Shown piece by piece: positions 470-5,260 of a stretch of 5,260 nt of DNA; position 1 is the first letter of the stretch; each line of letters starts with the position of its first letter. The stretch lies in IMG/VR virus record IMGVR_UViG_2667527608_000018. One strand, 5' to 3'. Position numbers and translations under genes: made by a program. Origin of the DNA: a virus. Its lineage: Duplodnaviria > Heunggongvirae > Uroviricota > Caudoviricetes. Below the pieces are notes generated by a model, which saw nothing but the letters and a program-made list of their open reading frames with translations, made no database searches and was not told the DNA's origin.

Positions 470-2341
470 ATGAGTAAAGTCTTTATTTGCGCCGCCATTC
501 CGGACGAACAGGCAATAAAGGAAGAAGGTGCAGTCGCTGTAGCCACTGCCATTGAAGCCGGTGATGAATGTCGCGCCCGCGCAAAATTTCACTGGCAATT
601 CCTGGAACATTATCCGGCTGCTCAGGACTGCGCTTATAAATTTATTGTCTGCGAGGATAAACCTGGCATACCCCGCCCTGCCCTCGATTCATGGGATGCT
701 GAATATATGCAGGAAAACCGCTGGGATGAGGAGTCTGCTTCTTTTGTCCCGGTTGAGACTGAATCCTATCCGATGAACGTCACTTTTGACAAGCTGGCCC
801 CTGAAGTACAGAACGCTGTCATGGTTAAGTTCGACACATGTGAAAACATCACCGTTGATATGGTGATTAGCGCACAGGAATTGTTGCAGGAAGACATGGC
901 AACATTCGACGGACATATCGTTGAAGCGTTGATGAAAATGCCAGAAGTTAACACCATGTATCCGGAGCTTAAGTTGCACGCCATTGGGTGGGTTAAGCAT
1001 AAATGTATTCCTGGTGCTAAATGGCCCGAAATTCAGGCAGAGATGCGCATCTGGAAAAAACGTCGCGAAGGTGAACGCAAGGAAACCGGAAAATACACGT
1101 CTGTTGTTGATCTCGCCCGCGCCAGAGCCAATCAACAGTACACTGAAAATTCAACAGGAAAAATCAGCCCGGTCATTGCTGCCATTCATCGCGAATACAA
1201 GCAGACATGGAAAACACTGGATGACGAACTGGCCTACGCTCTCTGGCCTGGTGATGTGGATGCCGGAAACATTGACGGCAGCATCCATCGCTGGGCAAAA
1301 AATGAAGTTATCGACAACGGCCGCGAAGACTGGAAGCGTATCTCGGCATCAATGCGCAAACAGCCTGATGCCCTTCGCTACGACCGCCAGACTATTTTTG
1401 GCCTTGTCCGTGAACGTCCGATCGACATTCACAAAGATCCCGTAGCACTGAACAAATATATCTGCGAATACCTGACGACAAAGGGCGTGTTTGAGAATGA
1501 AGAAACAGACCTGGGCACTGTTGATGTTCTCCAGTCATCAGAAACACAAACTGATGCAGTGGAAACTGAGGTATCTGATATCCCAAAAAATGAAACCGCG
1601 CCGGAAGCTGAACCATCTGTAGAGCGTGAGGGGCCGTTCTACTTCCTCTTCACCGACAAGGATGGCGAAAAATACGGTCGCGCAAACAAACTTTCTGGTC
1701 TGGATAAGGCGCTGTCTGCTGGGGCTACTGAAATCACGAAAGAAGAATATTTCGCCCGCAAAAACGGTACATACTCAGGTTCACAACAAAATACTGGTGC
1801 ATCTGACACGACCGCACAACCAGGGTCAGTAAAAGTTACCGCTGACGAAGTAAACAAAATTATGCAGGCAGCCAATATCAGCCAGCCTGACGCCGATGAA
1901 CTGCTTGCAGTATCACGTGGTGAATTTGTTGAAGGGATTAGCGACCCGAATGATCCGAAATGGGTTAAGGGGATCCAGACCCGCGATTCTGTGAACCAGA
2001 ACCAGCAAGAAACGGAACAGAACGACCAGAAAGCGGAACAAAACAGCCCAAATACGCAACAAAACGAGCCAGAAACGAAACAACCTGAACCAGTAGTGCA
2101 ACAGGAACCGGAAAAGATCTGCACCGCCTGCGGTCAGAGCGGTGGCGGCAACTGCCCTGATTGTGGAGCGGTAATGGGTGACGCAACCTACCAAGAGACA
2201 TTCAACGAAGAAAGCCAGGATGAAGCCCGGAAAAAAATCCGGAGGAAATGGAAAATGCCGTGCTCCCGAATAAGCAATGCACCGAAGGCGATCAACATGC
2301 CAATGGCAATAATGAAACAGGCGAGACAGCAAATCCCTTAA
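470..2341 (+). CDS. Large hypothetical prophage early-region protein (623 aa) with acidic Q/N/E-rich low-complexity linker and C-terminal CxxC-x7-CxxC zinc-ribbon-like motif; function unknown
   Basis: Uninterrupted 1872-nt ORF; GAGG (457-460) 9 nt upstream of ATG 470; Cys codons at 2120, 2129, 2153 and 2162. It sits upstream of exonuclease-xis-int, the slot occupied by Ea22-like accessory genes in lambda-family phages (recalled synteny, not sequence similarity). Confidence 0.8.
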   Translation: MSKVFICAAIPDEQAIKEEGAVAVATAIEAGDECRARAKFHWQFLEHYPAAQDCAYKFIVCEDKPGIPRPALDSWDAEYMQENRWDEESASFVPVETESYPMNVTFDKLAPEVQNAVMVKFDTCENITVDMVISAQELLQEDMATFDGHIVEALMKMPEVNTMYPELKLHAIGWVKHKCIPGAKWPEIQAEMRIWKKRREGERKETGKYTSVVDLARARANQQYTENSTGKISPVIAAIHREYKQTWKTLDDELAYALWPGDVDAGNIDGSIHRWAKNEVIDNGREDWKRISASMRKQPDALRYDRQTIFGLVRERPIDIHKDPVALNKYICEYLTTKGVFENEETDLGTVDVLQSSETQTDAVETEVSDIPKNETAPEAEPSVEREGPFYFLFTDKDGEKYGRANKLSGLDKALSAGATEITKEEYFARKNGTYSGSQQNTGASDTTAQPGSVKVTADEVNKIMQAANISQPDADELLAVSRGEFVEGISDPNDPKWVKGIQTRDSVNQNQQETEQNDQKAEQNSPNTQQNEPETKQPEPVVQQEPEKICTACGQSGGGNCPDCGAVMGDATYQETFNEESQDEARKKIRRKWKMPCSRISNAPKAINMPMAIMKQARQQIP

Positions 2342-2397
2342 TTACGGTGAACGGTCATCACGTTATCACATCCACCAGCAGGACGTGTGACCATCTA

Positions 2398-2940
2398 ATG
2401 ATCGACCTTAAAACCATGGGAAAAAATCCTGATGCCCCGATTATCTCAATAGGTGCAATATTTTTCGATCCGCAAACCGGAGATATGGGACCGGAATTTA
2501 GTAAGACTATCGATCTGGAAACTGCTGGCGGAGTCATTGATCGGGACACCATTAAACGGTGGCTTAAGCAATCACGCGAAGCGCAATCTGCCATTATGAC
2601 CGATGAAATCCCGTTAGATGATGCACTGTTACAATTGCGGGAATTTATCGACGAAAACTCCGGTGAATTTTTTGTTCAGGTCTGGGGAAATGGAGCCAAC
2701 TTCGACAACACGATTTTGCGCCGTTCATACGAACGGCAGGGGATCCCCTGCCCGTGGCGTTACTACAACGATCGCGATGTACGCACAATCGTTGAGCTGG
2801 GGAAAGCCATAGACTTCGATGCCAGAATGGCTATTCCATTCGAAGGTGAGCGCCATAATGCACTTGATGACGCCCGTTACCAAGCAAAATACGTTTCAGT
2901 TATCTGGCAAAAACTGATCCCGAGTCAGGCTGATTTTTAA
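2398..2940 (+). CDS. DnaQ-like DEDDh 3'-5' exonuclease family protein (prophage exonuclease); start uncertain (in-frame alternatives GTG 2347, ATG 2248)
   Basis: Translation shows Exo I-like MIDLKTMG at the N-terminus, Exo II-like VWGNGANFDNTIL and Exo III-like ERHNALDDARY (H-x4-D). Stop TAA 2938-2940. AGGA at 2380-2383 is 14 nt from ATG 2398, which is weak spacing. Confidence 0.65.
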   Translation: MIDLKTMGKNPDAPIISIGAIFFDPQTGDMGPEFSKTIDLETAGGVIDRDTIKRWLKQSREAQSAIMTDEIPLDDALLQLREFIDENSGEFFVQVWGNGANFDNTILRRSYERQGIPCPWRYYNDRDVRTIVELGKAIDFDARMAIPFEGERHNALDDARYQAKYVSVIWQKLIPSQADF

Positions 2941-2998: not shown

Positions 2999-3202
2999 AT
3001 GAGTAGCTTATTTTTAACCGAAGATGAATTGCTAATATTAACGGGCTGCAAATATGCAAGCCACCAGCGAAAATGGTTAACGGAAAACGGGCTTCCGTTC
3101 TATACCAATCGTAGTGGCAAACCGATTGTCAGCCGGGATCTATTTACCTGCAATAAAACTTTACCACCACGCGAGGTAGAGCCGAATTTTGGTGCAATCT
3201 GA
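2999..3202 (+). CDS. xis: Small excisionase-like / recombination directionality factor-like protein (67 aa), resembling the DUF4224-type proteins found immediately upstream of prophage integrases
   Basis: Small ORF directly upstream of the integrase; its stop TGA (3200-3202) overlaps the integrase ATG (3202-3204) as TGATG. The N-terminal LTEDELLILTGCK pattern matches my recollection of DUF4224-like proteins. Confidence 0.55.
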   Translation: MSSLFLTEDELLILTGCKYASHQRKWLTENGLPFYTNRSGKPIVSRDLFTCNKTLPPREVEPNFGAI

Positions 3203-4227
3203 TGGGAAGACGAAGGAAAAATCCTGAACACGAAAAACTACCTCCAAATGTATACCCAAATAAATATAGTTATGTATGGAAACCAACATCCAGAGAATCT
3301 GTCACACTAACCGCCATCAAGGATGGTTTAGCTGCTTTATGGAAAAGGTATGAGGAAACTGTAAATAATCGCGATCGCGCAATGACATTCGGTCGCTTGT
3401 GGGAAAAATTCCTCGCCAGCGCCTATTACAGTGACCTCAGTCCAAGAACACAAAAAGATTATCTACAACATCAAAAAAAGTTGCTTGCCGTATTCGGTAA
3501 GGTGCCGGCAGATTCCATAAAACCAGAACACATCCGTCGATACATGGACAAGAGAGGGGAGCAGAGTAAAACGCAAGCCAACCATGAAAAAAGCAGTATG
3601 TCCCGCGTTTACAGTTGGGGGTATGAGCGAGGGTACGTGAAAGGTAACCCATGTGCAGGTGTAAGTAAATTCAAGGCCAAAAACCGCGAACGATATGTAA
3701 CCGACAAAGAATACCAGGCAGTATTAAGCGTTGCACCTCTTCCTGTTTTTATCGCAATGGAAATTGCCTATCTGTGTGCAGCGAGGGTTTCCGATGTGTT
3801 ATCGCTGAAATGGGAGCAGATTGGAAACGACGGAATCTTTATCCAGCAAGGGAAAACAGGAAAAAAACAGATAAAAGCATGGAGTCCACGATTACAGGCG
3901 GCGATCGAAAAAGCAAAACAGTTACCAACATCCGCCTATGTAATCAGTAATCAATACGGCAACCGATATATGTACAAAGGCTTTAACGAAATGTGGGTAG
4001 AAGCAAGAAATCGCGCAGGCAAAATTTCAGGTATTTTAACCGACTTCACCTTTCATGATCTGAAGGCGAAAGGAATTTCAGACTATGAAGGAAGCAGTCG
4101 GGATAAGCAACTTTTCTCTGGTCACAAAACCGAGGGGCAAGTGCTAATCTATGACAGGAAGGTTAAAGTTTCACCGACACTTGATGTCCCGTTACCTGAA
4201 AATATTCCAAGAAAATATTCCAAGTAA
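3202..4227 (+). CDS. int: Tyrosine recombinase, lambda-family phage integrase (341 aa)
   Basis: N-terminal MGRRRKNPEHEKLPPNVY resembles the lambda Int arm-binding N-terminus (MGRRR...LPPNLY). Catalytic-domain landmarks are present: AARVSD (Arg I), QQGKTGKK (beta-hairpin Lys), FHDLK (His plus the position of Arg II), GHK and LIYDR (catalytic Tyr codon 4150-4152). Confidence 0.9.
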   Translation: MGRRRKNPEHEKLPPNVYPNKYSYVWKPTSRESVTLTAIKDGLAALWKRYEETVNNRDRAMTFGRLWEKFLASAYYSDLSPRTQKDYLQHQKKLLAVFGKVPADSIKPEHIRRYMDKRGEQSKTQANHEKSSMSRVYSWGYERGYVKGNPCAGVSKFKAKNRERYVTDKEYQAVLSVAPLPVFIAMEIAYLCAARVSDVLSLKWEQIGNDGIFIQQGKTGKKQIKAWSPRLQAAIEKAKQLPTSAYVISNQYGNRYMYKGFNEMWVEARNRAGKISGILTDFTFHDLKAKGISDYEGSSRDKQLFSGHKTEGQVLIYDRKVKVSPTLDVPLPENIPRKYSK

Positions 4228-4279: not shown

Positions 4280-4369
4280 TGGCGGAGAGAGGGGGATTTG
4301 AACCCCCGGTGGAGTTGCCCCCACTCCGGTTTTCGAGACCGGTCCGTTCAGCCGCTCCGGCATCTCTCC
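4280..4369 (-). tRNA. serU: tRNA-Ser (anticodon CGA), 90 nt with long variable arm
   Basis: Reverse complement reads GGAGAGATGCCGGAGCGGCTGAACGGACCGGTCTCGAAAACCGGAGTGGGGGCAACTCCACCGGGGGTTCAAATCCCCCTCTCTCCGCCA: 7-bp acceptor stem, anticodon loop CTCGAAA, T-loop GGTTCAAATCC, encoded CCA end. It matches my memory of E. coli serU. Confidence 0.93.
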
Positions 4370-4413: not shown

Positions 4414-4462
4414 GTCCCTGTCCGTGCAATTTTGTTCAAGTGACGAGTTTGCGAGCAAAACG

Positions 4463-5260
4463 ATGATTAAGTGGCCCTGGAAAGTACAAGAATCAGCACA
4501 TCAAACTGCCCTTCCCTGGCAGGAAGCACTATCGATCCCCCTTTTAACGTGTCTGACGGAACAGGAACAAAGCAAATTAGTCACTCTTGCCGAACGTTTT
4601 TTACAGCAAAAGCGGCTTGTTCCTTTACAGGGCTTTGAACTGGATTCATTAAGAAGCTGCCGGATAGCACTTCTATTTTGCCTACCCGTTCTGGAGTTAG
4701 GACTGGAATGGCTGGATGGTTTTCATGAAGTCTTAATTTATCCTGCGCCATTTGTGGTCGATGATGAATGGGAAGACGATATCGGTCTGGTGCATAACCA
4801 ACGTATTGTTCAGTCAGGTCAGAGCTGGCAGCAAGGGCCTATCGTTTTGAACTGGTTGGATATACAAGATTCTTTTGATGCTTCTGGTTTTAACCTGATT
4901 ATTCATGAAGTCGCTCATAAGCTGGACACCCGTAACGGCGATCGCGCCAGCGGAGTTCCCTTTATTCCGTTGCGTGAGGTTGCTGGCTGGGAACACGATC
5001 TTCATGCTGCAATGAACAACATTCAGGAAGAAATCGAATTGGTTGGCGAGAATGCGGCGAGCATTGATGCTTATGCTGCCAGTGATCCTGCTGAATGTTT
5101 TGCCGTACTTTCTGAATATTTCTTTAGCGCCCCAGAACTTTTTGCTCCTCGTTTCCCTTCATTGTGGCAACGTTTCTGCCAATTTTATCAACAAGATCCT
5201 TTGCAGAGACTGCATCGCACTAATGATACAGACTCGTTTTCGGCGACGAATGTTCATTAA
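4463..5260 (+). CDS. mtfA: MtfA (Mlc titration factor A), zinc-dependent peptidase with HExxH motif (265 aa); host gene
   Basis: Translation from ATG 4463 begins [20 protein letters not shown] and contains [10 protein letters not shown] (HExxH). The length and sequence match my recollection of E. coli MtfA/YeeI, which neighbours serU. The ORF track's upstream ATG at 4424 adds 13 residues and is probably not the true start. Confidence 0.9.

What the first reader, a model, noticed from the sequence alone, without database searches (positions are those of the whole stretch)
2398..2940. DEDDh exonuclease homologue with Lys at the Exo I glutamate position (D-L-K instead of D-x-E)
Exo II (NFD) and Exo III (H-x4-D) look intact, but the N-terminal Exo I motif reads IDLKTMG, with the K codon AAA at 2410-2412. 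In DnaQ-like 3'-5' exonucleases the Exo I D-x-E carboxylates coordinate the catalytic metal ions, so an E to K change (a single GAA to AAA transition) would be expected to inactivate the nuclease. It may be a pseudo-enzyme retained for binding, a decaying prophage gene, or a sequencing variant. The uncertain start codon fits with a gene under relaxed or altered selection.
Basis: partly seen in the sequence, partly recalled or inferred. Interest (0 to 1): 0.45.

Follow-up and report, generated by a model that had tools for sequence, protein, structure and literature searches.

The report
Broken prophage exonuclease with dead active site
The lysine is real, but it sits in the tail domain of a large E. 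coli prophage exonuclease gene that is also split by a one-base deletion here, so this is most likely ordinary decay of a redundant prophage gene rather than a new kind of enzyme.

Summary
Observation confirmed. Window 2398-2940 encodes a DexA-like/Rv2179c-like DEDDh domain (Pfam E=1.6e-62). The modelled fold is closest to T4 DexA. Codon 2410-2412 (AAA) puts Lys where the Exo I Glu lies; D3, D103, H153 and D158 are intact.

The "uncertain start" has a simple cause. The domain is the C-terminal module of an ~823-aa RecE-like lambdoid prophage protein. Here that gene is split by a 1-nt deletion in an A8 run (A7 at 2231-2237); adding one A restores an 823-aa ORF.

Both lesions lie in a 679-bp patch (2143-2821) identical to an annotated frameshifted allele in another E. 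coli strain. The flanks match the tRNA-Ser(CGA)/mtfA-adjacent prophage allele of a third strain, which has Glu, so this copy is a recombinant.

Lys is not a sequencing error. It occurs in 33 of 5,426 complete E. coli genomes, against 6,147 Glu copies, at four or more integration sites, mostly in intact ORFs. It is absent from 50,697 phage records and from all 77 readable species-representative loci.

Family-wide, Glu is nearly invariant (219 E, 3 K plus the query). Lys arose independently in Klebsiella, Citrobacter koseri and one metagenomic lineage. The last two also lost further catalytic residues.

Most likely reading: a loss-of-function allele in a redundant, decaying prophage gene. A retained pseudo-nuclease is a minority reading.

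The parts
470..2341 (+). Upstream ORF (623 aa). It holds the first ~589 native residues of the large prophage 'exonuclease', a RecE-like non-catalytic region, followed by a 34-aa out-of-frame tail.
   Evidence: One search lists the ORF. It matches phrog_2082 'exonuclease' positions 1-591 of 823. It matches NCBIfam NF007259 RecE profile positions 271-566. Sequence is identical to L003 up to 2166. The out-of-frame tail is shown.
2120..2164 (+). CxxC-x9-CxxC motif (CTACGQSGGGNCPDC), a probable zinc ribbon just before the linker.
   Evidence: Located by motif search and conserved in L001-L009. Zinc binding is inferred, not tested.
2143..2821 (+). Mosaic patch identical to the allele of E. coli 377323_2f (L002). 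It carries A7, Lys5 and Arg54(CGG). The sequence on both sides matches the tRNA-Ser(CGA)/mtfA-adjacent prophage allele of strain 2015C-3163 (L003).
   Evidence: There are no differences from L002 across 2143-2821. Against L003 there are 67 differences, all inside 2167-2557, plus a private one at 2883. The left breakpoint lies in 2143-2166 and the right one in 2558-2821.
2231..2237 (+). A7 homopolymer, the site of a 1-nt deletion relative to A8 in the intact 805-aa allele. It shifts the downstream exonuclease domain into the -1 frame.
   Evidence: Inserting one A gives an 823-aa ORF with no internal stop. L002 has the same A7 and is annotated 'frameshifted'.
2248..2940 (+). Downstream ORF (230 aa from ATG 2248), made of linker plus DEDDh domain. 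It lies in a different frame from 470-2341.
   Evidence: The same residues are internal to the intact proteins of L001 and L003.
2398..2940 (+). DexA-like / Rv2179c-like DEDDh 3'-5' exonuclease domain (180 aa).
   Evidence: PF16473 E=1.6e-62. Aligns to T4 DexA 8kel. The AF2 model searched with Foldseek gives DexA as the top hit.
2410..2412 (+). AAA = Lys5 at the Exo I Glu position. Nearly all relatives have GAA here.
2557..2559 (+). CGG = Arg54, where most family members have Trp. This Trp aligns with DexA W67, the equivalent of REXO2 W96.
   Evidence: and the legend of supplementary figure 7 of PMC12153337. Arg54 encoded by AGG is common on the Glu background (20 of 77 IMG/VR loci), so this is not a lesion specific to the Lys allele.
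2704..2706 (+). GAC = Asp103, the Exo II aspartate in the NFD motif. Intact.
   Evidence: The column is D in 253 of 261 homologues.
2854..2871 (+). His153-x4-Asp158 (HNALDD), the Exo III motif. Intact.
   Evidence: H153 is H in 252 of 252 and D158 is D in 250 of 252.
2999..4227 (+). Context: a DUF4224 (excisionase-position) gene at 2999-3202 and a tyrosine integrase at 3202-4227. The exonuclease is therefore the last early-left gene before the integration module.
   Evidence: Pfam hits and the annotation of syntenic L003.
4280..4369 (-). Context: tRNA-Ser(CGA), lying between the integrase gene and host mtfA (4424-5260), so presumably the prophage attachment site.
   Evidence: That it is the attachment site is inferred from position.

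Best explanation
The region is the C-terminal nuclease module of a large (~823 aa) lambdoid-prophage early-left protein. That protein joins a RecE-like non-catalytic N-terminal and central region, a Q/E/N-rich linker with a CxxC...CxxC motif, and a DexA-like DEDDh 3'-5' exonuclease domain. In this copy the gene carries two independent loss-of-function lesions. (1) A 1-nt deletion in an A8 run (A7 at 2231-2237), 56 codons upstream of the domain, puts the domain out of frame with the first 589 residues. (2) A G-to-A transition (2410) replaces the Exo I glutamate with lysine. In DEDDh enzymes that glutamate, with the neighbouring aspartate, holds the catalytic divalent metal ions, so the change should abolish or severely cripple hydrolysis. 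Both lesions arrived together in a ~0.4-0.7 kb recombination patch. The patch is identical to a frameshifted allele at another prophage site in another strain; the rest of the gene matches the Glu-bearing allele next to tRNA-Ser(CGA)/mtfA. The Lys allele is a rare segregating allele in E. coli. It had one origin, shown by a shared ~100-nt upstream haplotype. It then moved by recombination among the several co-resident lambdoid prophages that each carry a copy of this gene. Redundancy (up to 7 copies per genome), plus expression presumably only on induction, leaves any single copy under weak selection, so inactivating alleles persist and decay further. Shown here: the lesions, the mosaic structure, the allele frequencies, the independent recurrences and the further catalytic losses in other lineages. 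Inferred: loss of activity, timing of expression, and relaxed selection.
For: Architecture. The syntenic intact genes are single CDSs of 823 aa and 805 aa. Repairing A7 to A8 gives an 823-aa ORF. The RecE profile NF007259 matches positions 1-603 of 877 in the 805-aa type and 271-566 in the window's N-terminal ORF. PF06630 is present in the 805-aa type.

Frameshift. L001 has A8, while the window and L002 have A7, and L002 is annotated as a frameshifted pseudogene.

Mosaic. See the difference lists.

Catalytic position. DexA alignment, Pfam and fold search. DexA catalytic residues correspond to epsilon D12/E14/D103/H162/D167 (PMC12153337).

Rarity. There are 33 Lys places in 33 genomes against 6,147 Glu places in 3,932 genomes. 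The Lys 38-mer finds nothing in 50,697 phage records. In that collection the three closest phage copies were read and have Glu. None of the 77 readable GTDB species-representative loci has Lys. Two of the 77 closest IMG/VR loci do.

Single origin and spread. All 8 examined Lys copies from complete E. coli genomes share the upstream haplotype PLITVNGHH(V/L)ITSTSRTCDHL. They sit next to rspB, yccA or potC (the window next to tRNA-Ser(CGA)/mtfA) and carry three downstream haplotypes.

Redundancy. Lys-bearing genomes hold 2-6 copies of the gene but exactly one Lys copy.

Decay signature. Among the Lys copies, L002 and the window are frameshifted and L007 is split by IS1. In Citrobacter koseri the Lys alleles also carry D103A and about 13 fixed amino-acid changes in the domain, including the conserved NDRDVRT changed to NNRDVQT, and one also has the catalytic His changed to Tyr. 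P0131 combines K with D103N and D158G. Most catalytic-site deviants seen are amino-acid changes reachable by a single transition (E>K, D>N, D>G, H>Y), as mutation-driven loss would give; only E>K was checked at the DNA level.
Against: Most Lys copies are still full-length open reading frames: 6 of the 8 examined copies from complete E. coli genomes, and the exact 805-aa Lys protein is on at least 1000 contigs. A 2.4-kb ORF staying open is not what fast neutral decay predicts, although clonal sampling of O103:H2-type STEC can explain it.

Lys is the only replacement ever seen at this column and arose at least four times. That could hint at selection for Lys specifically.

Loss of activity was not measured.

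The A7 run could be a homopolymer sequencing error in both the window and L002. If so, this copy would be a full-length Lys allele rather than a split gene.
Confidence: 0.68

Rival explanations
1. Retained pseudo-nuclease. The E-to-K change converts the DexA-like domain into a catalytically dead but folded module kept by selection. It might bind DNA 3' ends. Or, since T4 DexA works as a dimer or tetramer with active sites built from two subunits, it might act as a poisoning or regulatory partner of the active copies encoded by co-resident prophages.
For: Lys alleles are mostly intact full-length ORFs. E-to-K arose independently in at least four lineages, and no other residue is seen at that column. 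In C. koseri five distinct full-length sequences carry K plus D103A. Genomes with the Lys copy also hold Glu copies. DexA's dimer/tetramer organisation and its inter-subunit active-site residue W152' are described in PMC12153337.
Against: In this window the domain is cut off from the protein by a frameshift, and another Lys copy is split by IS1. The C. koseri Lys clade accumulates changes at otherwise conserved positions and shows more amino-acid polymorphism than the Glu clade (7 sites in 5 sequences against 4 sites in 9). One member even loses the catalytic His, which looks like relaxation rather than a new constraint. The allele is very rare (0.5% of E. coli copies) and absent from deposited phage genomes and species representatives. 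E>K is simply the G>A transition product of GAA.
Confidence: 0.14
2. Sequencing or assembly artefact. The Lys codon, the A7 run, or both, are errors in the source assembly, and the real gene is an intact Glu-bearing or at least full-length exonuclease.
For: Homopolymer runs of 7-8 A are classic sites of indel errors. The exact window ORFs are not in a 15-billion-protein collection. No complete E. coli genome is identical to the window (best 98.7%).
Against: The Lys codon is present in 33 independent complete genomes and on at least 1000 contigs. The whole 679-bp patch, including A7, is base-for-base identical to an independently assembled genome (L002). For A7 alone an artefact remains possible, since only 2 of the 3 loci I hold with this linker type have it.
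Confidence: 0.08
3. The gene is still expressed as a full-length protein. The A7 run is bypassed by -1 ribosomal slippage of tRNA-Lys on AAA-AAA-A, or by transcriptional slippage that adds an A. Either gives low-level or phase-variable synthesis of the 823-aa (Lys5) protein.
For: A -1 shift, or one added A, at 2231-2237 restores exactly the reading frame and residues (…ARKKNPEEMEN…) of the intact 805-aa allele. Runs of A are known slippery sites in E. coli; this rests on established knowledge and was not tested here.
Against: There is no conserved stimulatory element. A7 occurs in only 2 of the loci examined, while the intact relatives encode the protein directly with A8 or with a different linker lacking the run. 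So this is a mutation, not a conserved recoding signal. Even if bypassed, the product would carry the Lys.
Confidence: 0.06
4. Lys-bearing enzyme that is still active. The lysine amine substitutes for one metal ion or re-tunes metal or substrate preference, so the domain remains a nuclease.
For: All other catalytic residues are intact in the E. coli Lys alleles. The recurrence of K specifically points the same way.
Against: The Glu is nearly invariant across about 300 homologues in two independent samples. Lineages that acquired Lys go on to lose other catalytic residues, the opposite of what an active enzyme would tolerate. From established knowledge, and not tested here, substitution of the Exo I carboxylates inactivates the well-studied DEDD exonucleases such as the Pol III epsilon subunit and the Klenow fragment.
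Confidence: 0.03

Closest known systems
Bacteriophage T4 DexA (exonuclease A; PDB 8KEL/8KEN) and the E. coli DexA homologue EcD ('HREX' defence), Kang et al., Nucleic Acids Res 2025 (PMC12153337)
   Same: Closest solved structure by sequence (phmmer E=4e-5) and by fold (Foldseek E=2e-9, TM 0.77). The N-terminal motif is the same (IDFETMG against IDLKTMG), and so are the WW helix and the Exo II and Exo III residues. EcD shows that E. coli DexA homologues can be active 3'-5' DNA exonucleases.
   Different: Identity is only about 20%, and DexA has extra loops. DexA and EcD are stand-alone proteins, whereas this domain is fused to a ~640-aa RecE-like region. EcD is a different gene: its cloning primer encodes MIDTET…. 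The window has Lys at the Exo I Glu and Arg at the DexA W67 position. Specificity for 5hmC DNA was not tested, and DexA W152 aligns with Tyr123 here.
Rv2179c-like 3'-5' exoribonuclease domain family (Pfam PF16473), within the DEDDh/DnaQ-like superfamily
   Same: Strong full-length profile match (210.8 bits, cut-off 27). DEDDh-type Exo II and Exo III motifs are present.
   Different: The Exo I Glu is replaced by Lys. Preference for DNA or RNA is unknown for this subfamily. M. tuberculosis Rv2179c itself was not retrieved by the sequence search of the PDB at E<=1.
RecE (exonuclease VIII) of the Rac prophage (NCBIfam NF007259; Pfam PF06630 for its N-terminal region)
   Same: Same genomic position, at the end of the early-left region next to xis/int. 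The long non-catalytic N-terminal and central region is homologous: the 805-aa type matches RecE profile positions 1-603 at 1022 bits, and the window's N-terminal ORF matches 271-566. These genes are widely annotated 'exodeoxyribonuclease VIII'.
   Different: The RecE C-terminal region that carries its 5'-3' exonuclease (profile positions ~604-877) is absent. It is replaced by a DEDDh 3'-5' domain, so the score is below the RecE cut-off of 1269 bits. No recT-like gene lies in the window.
DnaQ-like 3'-to-5' nucleases of lambdoid phage Rec modules, and the 'RecE-2' proteins lacking a nuclease domain, noted by Zheng et al., Genome Res 2025 (PMC12315714)
   Same: [quoted passage not shown] This places both the intact gene and its nuclease-less derivatives among known types.
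   Different: The survey does not describe active-site substitutions. The role of these nucleases in the phage life cycle remains unknown.

Membership tests
DEDDh (DnaQ-like) 3'-5' exonucleases, catalytically competent members | Exo I motif D-x-E, with both carboxylates present | tested here: not met
   D3 is present, but the E position is K5 (AAA, 2410-2412). The register is fixed by Pfam, the DexA alignment and the 265-sequence column.
DEDDh (DnaQ-like) 3'-5' exonucleases, catalytically competent members | Exo II aspartate | tested here: met
   D103 in WGNGANFDN (2704-2706). The column is D in 253 of 261.
DEDDh (DnaQ-like) 3'-5' exonucleases, catalytically competent members | Exo III H-x4-D | tested here: met
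   H153-NALD-D158 (2854-2871). H is invariant and D is found in 250 of 252.
DEDDh (DnaQ-like) 3'-5' exonucleases, catalytically competent members | DnaQ-like alpha/beta fold | tested here: met
   AF2 model with pLDDT 88.7 and pTM 0.85. Foldseek top hits are DexA, RNase T, REXO2 and Orn, all at probability 1.00.
DEDDh (DnaQ-like) 3'-5' exonucleases, catalytically competent members | Metal-dependent 3'-5' exonuclease activity | not testable with these tools
   Needs an enzyme assay of the Lys5 protein against a K5E revertant.
Pfam PF16473 Rv2179c-like domain | Profile score above the gathering threshold over the full domain | tested here: met
   210.8 bits against 27, with residues 1-170 matched to profile positions 4-177 of 177.
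T4 DexA / EcD 'HREX' 5hmC-DNA exonucleases | All five catalytic residues conserved (D7, E9, D119, H186, D191 in DexA numbering) | tested here: not met
   The Glu equivalent is Lys. The paper states that the catalytic residues are fully conserved in EcD and the homologues it shows. Its figure legend prints E12; the D-x-E Glu in the chain is E9.
T4 DexA / EcD 'HREX' 5hmC-DNA exonucleases | 5hmC-recognition residues (DexA W152 from the partner subunit and D169) | tested here: inconclusive
   W152 aligns with Y123 in the phmmer alignment, although W120 lies three residues earlier. The alignment ends before D169. No residue-level structural superposition was available.
T4 DexA / EcD 'HREX' 5hmC-DNA exonucleases | Protection against T4-like phages or cleavage of 5hmC DNA | not testable with these tools
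   Requires an experiment.
RecE / exonuclease VIII (NCBIfam NF007259 equivalog) | Full-length match above the curated cut-off, including the C-terminal region that carries the RecE nuclease | tested here: not met
   The window's N-terminal ORF scores 235 bits, the intact 823-aa relative 272 bits and the 805-aa relative 1022 bits, all below 1269. Matches stop at profile position ~603 of 877.
RecE / exonuclease VIII (NCBIfam NF007259 equivalog) | RecE N-terminal region (Pfam PF06630) | tested here: not met
   There is no Pfam hit in window 470-2338. PF06630 is present in the 805-aa relative. The family therefore has at least two unrelated N-terminal modules.

The most novel reading that the evidence does not exclude
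E-to-K at the Exo I glutamate may be a recurrent, selected 'off switch'. It would turn the DexA-like domain of prophage RecE-like proteins into a folded, nuclease-dead subunit. Such a subunit could bind 3' ends, or co-assemble with and poison the active copies made by co-resident prophages. The observations behind this reading are four. Lys is the only replacement ever seen at this column. It arose at least four times. It spread to four or more prophage backbones in E. coli. It is kept in full-length ORFs, including a Citrobacter koseri clade with a second catalytic substitution.
Probability: 0.08. Interest if true: 0.55.

Novelty: new member of a known kind. Interest (0 to 1): 0.2.

Why it matters
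There are three practical points for annotation. First, thousands of E. coli prophage genes labelled 'exonuclease' or 'exodeoxyribonuclease VIII' are in fact RecE-like N-terminal regions fused to a DexA-like DEDDh domain. Second, a small fraction of them, including RefSeq protein WP_000990639.1, carry a Lys at the metal-binding Glu and should not be assumed active. Third, 180-230 aa 'stand-alone' exonuclease calls in E. coli can be the downstream halves of frameshifted genes, as this one is.

Biologically the case illustrates how loss-of-function alleles travel between co-resident lambdoid prophages in short recombination patches. It would matter more if the recurrent E-to-K change proved to be selected, for example as a dead subunit that modulates active copies. 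The present evidence does not favour that. Because DexA-family enzymes have recently been tied to phage attack and defence on modified DNA (PMC12153337), knowing which prophage copies are catalytically dead is useful for anyone testing that idea.

Tried and rejected
(1) I tried to count A7 against A8 alleles in complete E. coli genomes with a 58-nt query across the run. It returned no match, probably because of the low-complexity filter. The A7 frequency therefore rests on the 3 loci I hold with this linker type: window and L002 with A7, L001 with A8.

(2) I considered W54R a second active-site lesion linked to Lys. I rejected this because Arg54 (AGG) occurs with Glu5 in 20 of the 77 nearest IMG/VR loci and in protein cluster P0005. 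Only the CGG form has so far been seen exclusively with Lys.

(3) I asked whether the experimentally studied EcD is this prophage domain. It is not, since its primer encodes MIDTET.

(4) I looked for a compensating acidic residue that could replace the Glu. None exists. The Lys and Glu alleles differ in the domain only at E5K, the R/W54 polymorphism and synonymous sites.

(5) The PDB sequence search did not retrieve Rv2179c itself at E<=1, so DexA is used as the structural reference.

(6) PADLOC gave only a weak generic hit to the CRISPR-associated DEDDh model (E=2.6e-5), and no defence-system model matched the N-terminal region. I do not treat this as evidence of a defence role.

(7) I did not attempt dN/dS on Lys lineages. 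The E. coli Lys copies carry too few private changes, and DNA for the C. koseri alleles could not be fetched under the tool restrictions.

(8) I examined the idea that A7 is a programmed recoding site. It is kept only as a low-probability rival, because intact relatives encode the protein without any shift.
Full report
**1. What is in the sequence**

The window is the integration end of an E. coli-type lambdoid prophage. In order it holds:
- dicB (1-189)
- a DUF1482 gene
- a long ORF at 470-2341
- a second ORF at 2248-2940, in another frame
- a DUF4224 gene in the excisionase position (2999-3202)
- a tyrosine integrase (3202-4227)
- tRNA-Ser(CGA) on the minus strand (4280-4369)
- host mtfA (4424-5260)

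The finding's coordinates are right. ATG is at 2398 and TAA at 2938-2940. The peptide starts MIDLKTMG, and AAA is at 2410-2412.

**2.

The 180-aa product is a clear member of the Rv2179c-like DEDDh domain family. PF16473 gives E=1.6e-62, at 210.8 bits against a cut-off of 27. It aligns with T4 DexA (PDB 8KEL/8KEN) so that IDLKTMG lies on IDFETMG.

An AlphaFold2 model built on 42 homologues has mean pLDDT 88.7. Its best structural matches are DexA (TM 0.77), then RNase T and REXO2/oligoribonuclease.

The DexA paper equates the DexA catalytic residues with D12, E14, D103, H162 and D167 of the Pol III epsilon subunit (PMC12153337). Its legend prints 'E12' for the Glu. In the chain the D-x-E Glu is E9.

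In an alignment of 265 homologues from two protein searches the columns read as follows:

| Position (window residue) | Residues seen in the homologues |
|---|---|
| Asp3 | D in 222 of 222 |
| Glu5 position (Lys here) | E in 219, K in 3 |
| Asp103 | D in 253 of 261 |
| His153 | H in 252 of 252 |
| Asp158 | D in 250 of 252 |

**3. The 'uncertain start' is a broken gene**

In close relatives the domain is not a gene of its own. It is the last 180 residues of one CDS, annotated 'exonuclease':
- 823 aa in the syntenic prophage of strain 2015C-3163 (L003)
- 805 aa in a prophage next to rspB in strain 2011C-4251 (L001)
- 824-830 aa elsewhere

The window runs 2,471 nt from 470 to 2940, one base short of a multiple of three. 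L001 reads CGG-A8-TCC where the window reads CGG-A7-TCC at 2231-2237. Adding one A gives an uninterrupted 823-aa ORF in which the domain starts at residue 644.

The window's gene is thus split. One product is 623 aa (589 native residues plus a 34-residue out-of-frame tail). The other is a downstream fragment that could only be made by re-initiation at ATG 2248 or 2398.

Neither start looks favourable. GGAGG lies only 2 nt before ATG 2248, and AGGA lies 14 nt before ATG 2398. That much can be read from the sequence; whether either is used is unknown.

**4. What the whole protein is**

NCBI's RecE (exonuclease VIII) model NF007259 matches the 805-aa relative over profile positions 1-603 of 877, at 1022 bits and below the 1269 cut-off. 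It matches the window's N-terminal ORF over positions 271-566. Pfam's RecE N-terminal family PF06630 is present in the 805-aa type but not in the window's type.

These proteins are therefore RecE-like in their long non-catalytic part. They end in a DEDDh 3'-5' domain in place of the RecE C-terminal region that carries its nuclease. A CxxC-x9-CxxC motif (2120-2164) and a Q/E/N-rich linker precede the domain.

A recent survey of lambdoid Rec modules records DnaQ-like nucleases and nuclease-less 'RecE-2' proteins in this genome region (PMC12315714). An E. coli DexA homologue, EcD, has been shown to degrade 5hmC DNA and protect against T4 (PMC12153337). EcD is a different gene, because its primer encodes MIDTET.

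In the syntenic strain the gene lies at the distal end of the early-left region of an otherwise fairly complete lambdoid prophage. That prophage has an IS600 inserted just upstream of dicB. Expression from the early-left promoter on induction is my inference.

**5. This copy is a recombinant**

Against L003 the window has no difference before 2167. It has 67 differences in 2167-2557 and then one private synonymous change at 2883.

Against L002 (strain 377323_2f, same allele type as L001 but annotated 'frameshifted') it has no difference across 2143-2821. It differs at seven sites after 2821 and heavily before 2143.

So a patch with its left end in 2143-2166 and its right end in 2558-2821 carries A7, Lys5 and Arg54(CGG) together. 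It sits in a backbone whose own allele has Glu5 and Trp54.

**6. How common Lys is**

| Sample | Result |
|---|---|
| 5,426 complete E. coli genomes, 38-mer with AAA | 33 places in 33 genomes |
| Same genomes, 38-mer with GAA | 6,147 places in 3,932 genomes |
| Same genomes, whole gene | 8,115 places in 4,070 genomes, up to 7 per genome |
| 50,697 phage records, AAA 38-mer | no match; 24 records carry the gene, and the three closest, which were read, have Glu |
| 77 closest IMG/VR loci | 2 Lys/Arg, 20 Glu/Arg, 55 Glu/Trp |
| 77 readable GTDB species-representative loci | 77 Glu, 0 Lys |

Genomes with the Lys copy hold one Lys copy and usually several Glu copies. The exact 805-aa Lys protein is on record from at least 1000 contigs, so the codon is not a sequencing error.

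**7. Origin and spread in E. coli**

I examined eight Lys copies from complete E. coli genomes. They lie next to rspB, yccA or potC; the window lies next to tRNA-Ser(CGA)/mtfA. They have different N-terminal modules and three different downstream haplotypes.

All share the ~100 nt immediately upstream, encoding PLITVNGHH(V/L)ITSTSRTCDHL. That fits one mutation carried into several prophage backbones by recombination. Six of the eight are intact ORFs. One has the A7 frameshift and one is split by IS1.

**8. Other lineages**

Lys also occurs in three other places:
- a stand-alone 185-aa protein of Klebsiella oxytoca, whose three cluster mates have Glu
- 752-aa proteins of Citrobacter koseri
- a 641-aa metagenomic protein

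Each has Glu-bearing nearest neighbours, so these are separate events.

The C. koseri Lys alleles also have D103A and about 13 fixed amino-acid differences within the domain. These include changes in the conserved NDRDVRT motif, and one member has the catalytic His changed to Tyr. The N-terminal 570 residues show almost no fixed differences. The metagenomic protein has K plus D103N plus D158G.

Across the sample about 3% of complete sequences deviate at some catalytic position. Most of these are amino-acid changes reachable by a single transition (E>K, D>N, D>G, H>Y). Only E>K was checked at the DNA level.

**9. Interpretation**

The simplest account is loss of function followed by drift. The Exo I Glu is a metal ligand in DEDDh enzymes. 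This is established knowledge for epsilon, Klenow fragment and RNase T; I did not test it here. Lys at that site should kill or cripple catalysis.

The gene is redundant within genomes and probably silent in the lysogen. Dead alleles can therefore persist, recombine into other prophages and pick up further damage. The window shows that second step, the frameshift in the A run, just as the C. koseri and metagenomic lineages show further active-site losses.

The main alternative is a nuclease-dead domain kept for binding or for modulating active copies. Three observations keep it alive: most Lys alleles are open full-length ORFs, Lys is the only substitution seen, and it recurs. Clonal over-sampling of STEC lineages and the G>A mutational bias can explain those points. 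I give this alternative about 0.14.

An artefact explanation is excluded for the Lys codon. It remains possible for the A7 run only.

**10. Novelty and verdict**

The family, its architecture and its position in lambdoid genomes are known. The Lys allele is already in RefSeq under the name 'exonuclease', without comment on the active site.

The finding is real but ordinary. It is a rare inactive allele inside a frameshifted, mosaic prophage gene. Interest is low, with a small chance that the recurrent E-to-K change means more.

Noticed in passing
window 2557-2559; L001, L002, L005, L007-L009; IMG/VR loci L013-L092: Trp54 is conserved in about 92% of homologues and aligns with DexA W67, the equivalent of REXO2 substrate residue W96. 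In E. coli it is replaced by Arg through two different codons. AGG is common and occurs with Glu5 in 20 of the 77 nearest viral-contig loci. CGG has been seen only with Lys5 (window, L001, L002). This looks like a convergent W-to-R change at a substrate-contacting position. It might alter substrate preference.
   Followed up: partly
window 470-2166 compared with L001 776-2470: The same C-terminal linker and DEDDh module is fused to at least two unrelated N-terminal modules. One is a RecE N-terminal type (PF06630, MNADKEE…/MSTDKEE…). The other is the window's type (MSKVFICAAIPDEQ…, no Pfam hit over residues 1-245). Both share the RecE-like central region, at profile positions ~271-603.
   Followed up: partly
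window 2120-2164: A CxxC-x9-CxxC motif (CTACGQSGGGNCPDC) lies between the RecE-like region and the nuclease domain and is conserved in all relatives examined. It is a probable zinc ribbon of unknown role.
   Followed up: no
window 3202-4227; L003 4203-5253: The window's integrase ORF is 341 aa and the sequence is identical to that of strain 2015C-3163. There the annotation pipeline calls a 1,051-nt 'frameshifted' pseudogene running 26 nt past the ORF's stop. A deposited phage record (vB_EcoS-689R5) annotates a 341-aa integrase of the same length. Whether the integrase is truncated or complete is unresolved.
   Followed up: no
L093 (NZ_CP027219.1 1776600-1800000), upstream of the region syntenic to window position 1: In the strain whose flanks are identical to the window, an IS600 sits immediately upstream of dicB, between the early-left genes and the repressor region of an otherwise fairly complete lambdoid prophage. 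It probably cuts these genes off from the early-left promoter. The window starts at dicB, so the same insertion cannot be checked here.
   Followed up: partly
proteins P0017, P0022, P0023, P0026, P0028: Many database entries for E. coli and E. albertii are 180-aa or 230-aa 'exonucleases', exactly the lengths of the window's two possible downstream ORFs. This suggests that split or truncated copies of the large gene are common and get annotated as small stand-alone genes. P0017 (28 member sequences) additionally has D103N.
   Followed up: no
L095: A contig binned as a Veillonella parvula MAG carries a 98%-identical copy of this E. coli prophage domain. This is most likely a binning contaminant rather than a transfer.
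   Followed up: no
PMC12153337, legend of Figure 5A: The DexA paper lists the catalytic Glu as E12, whereas the D-x-E motif in the deposited chain is D7-F8-E9. This is a probable misprint, worth keeping in mind when citing residue numbers.
   Followed up: no
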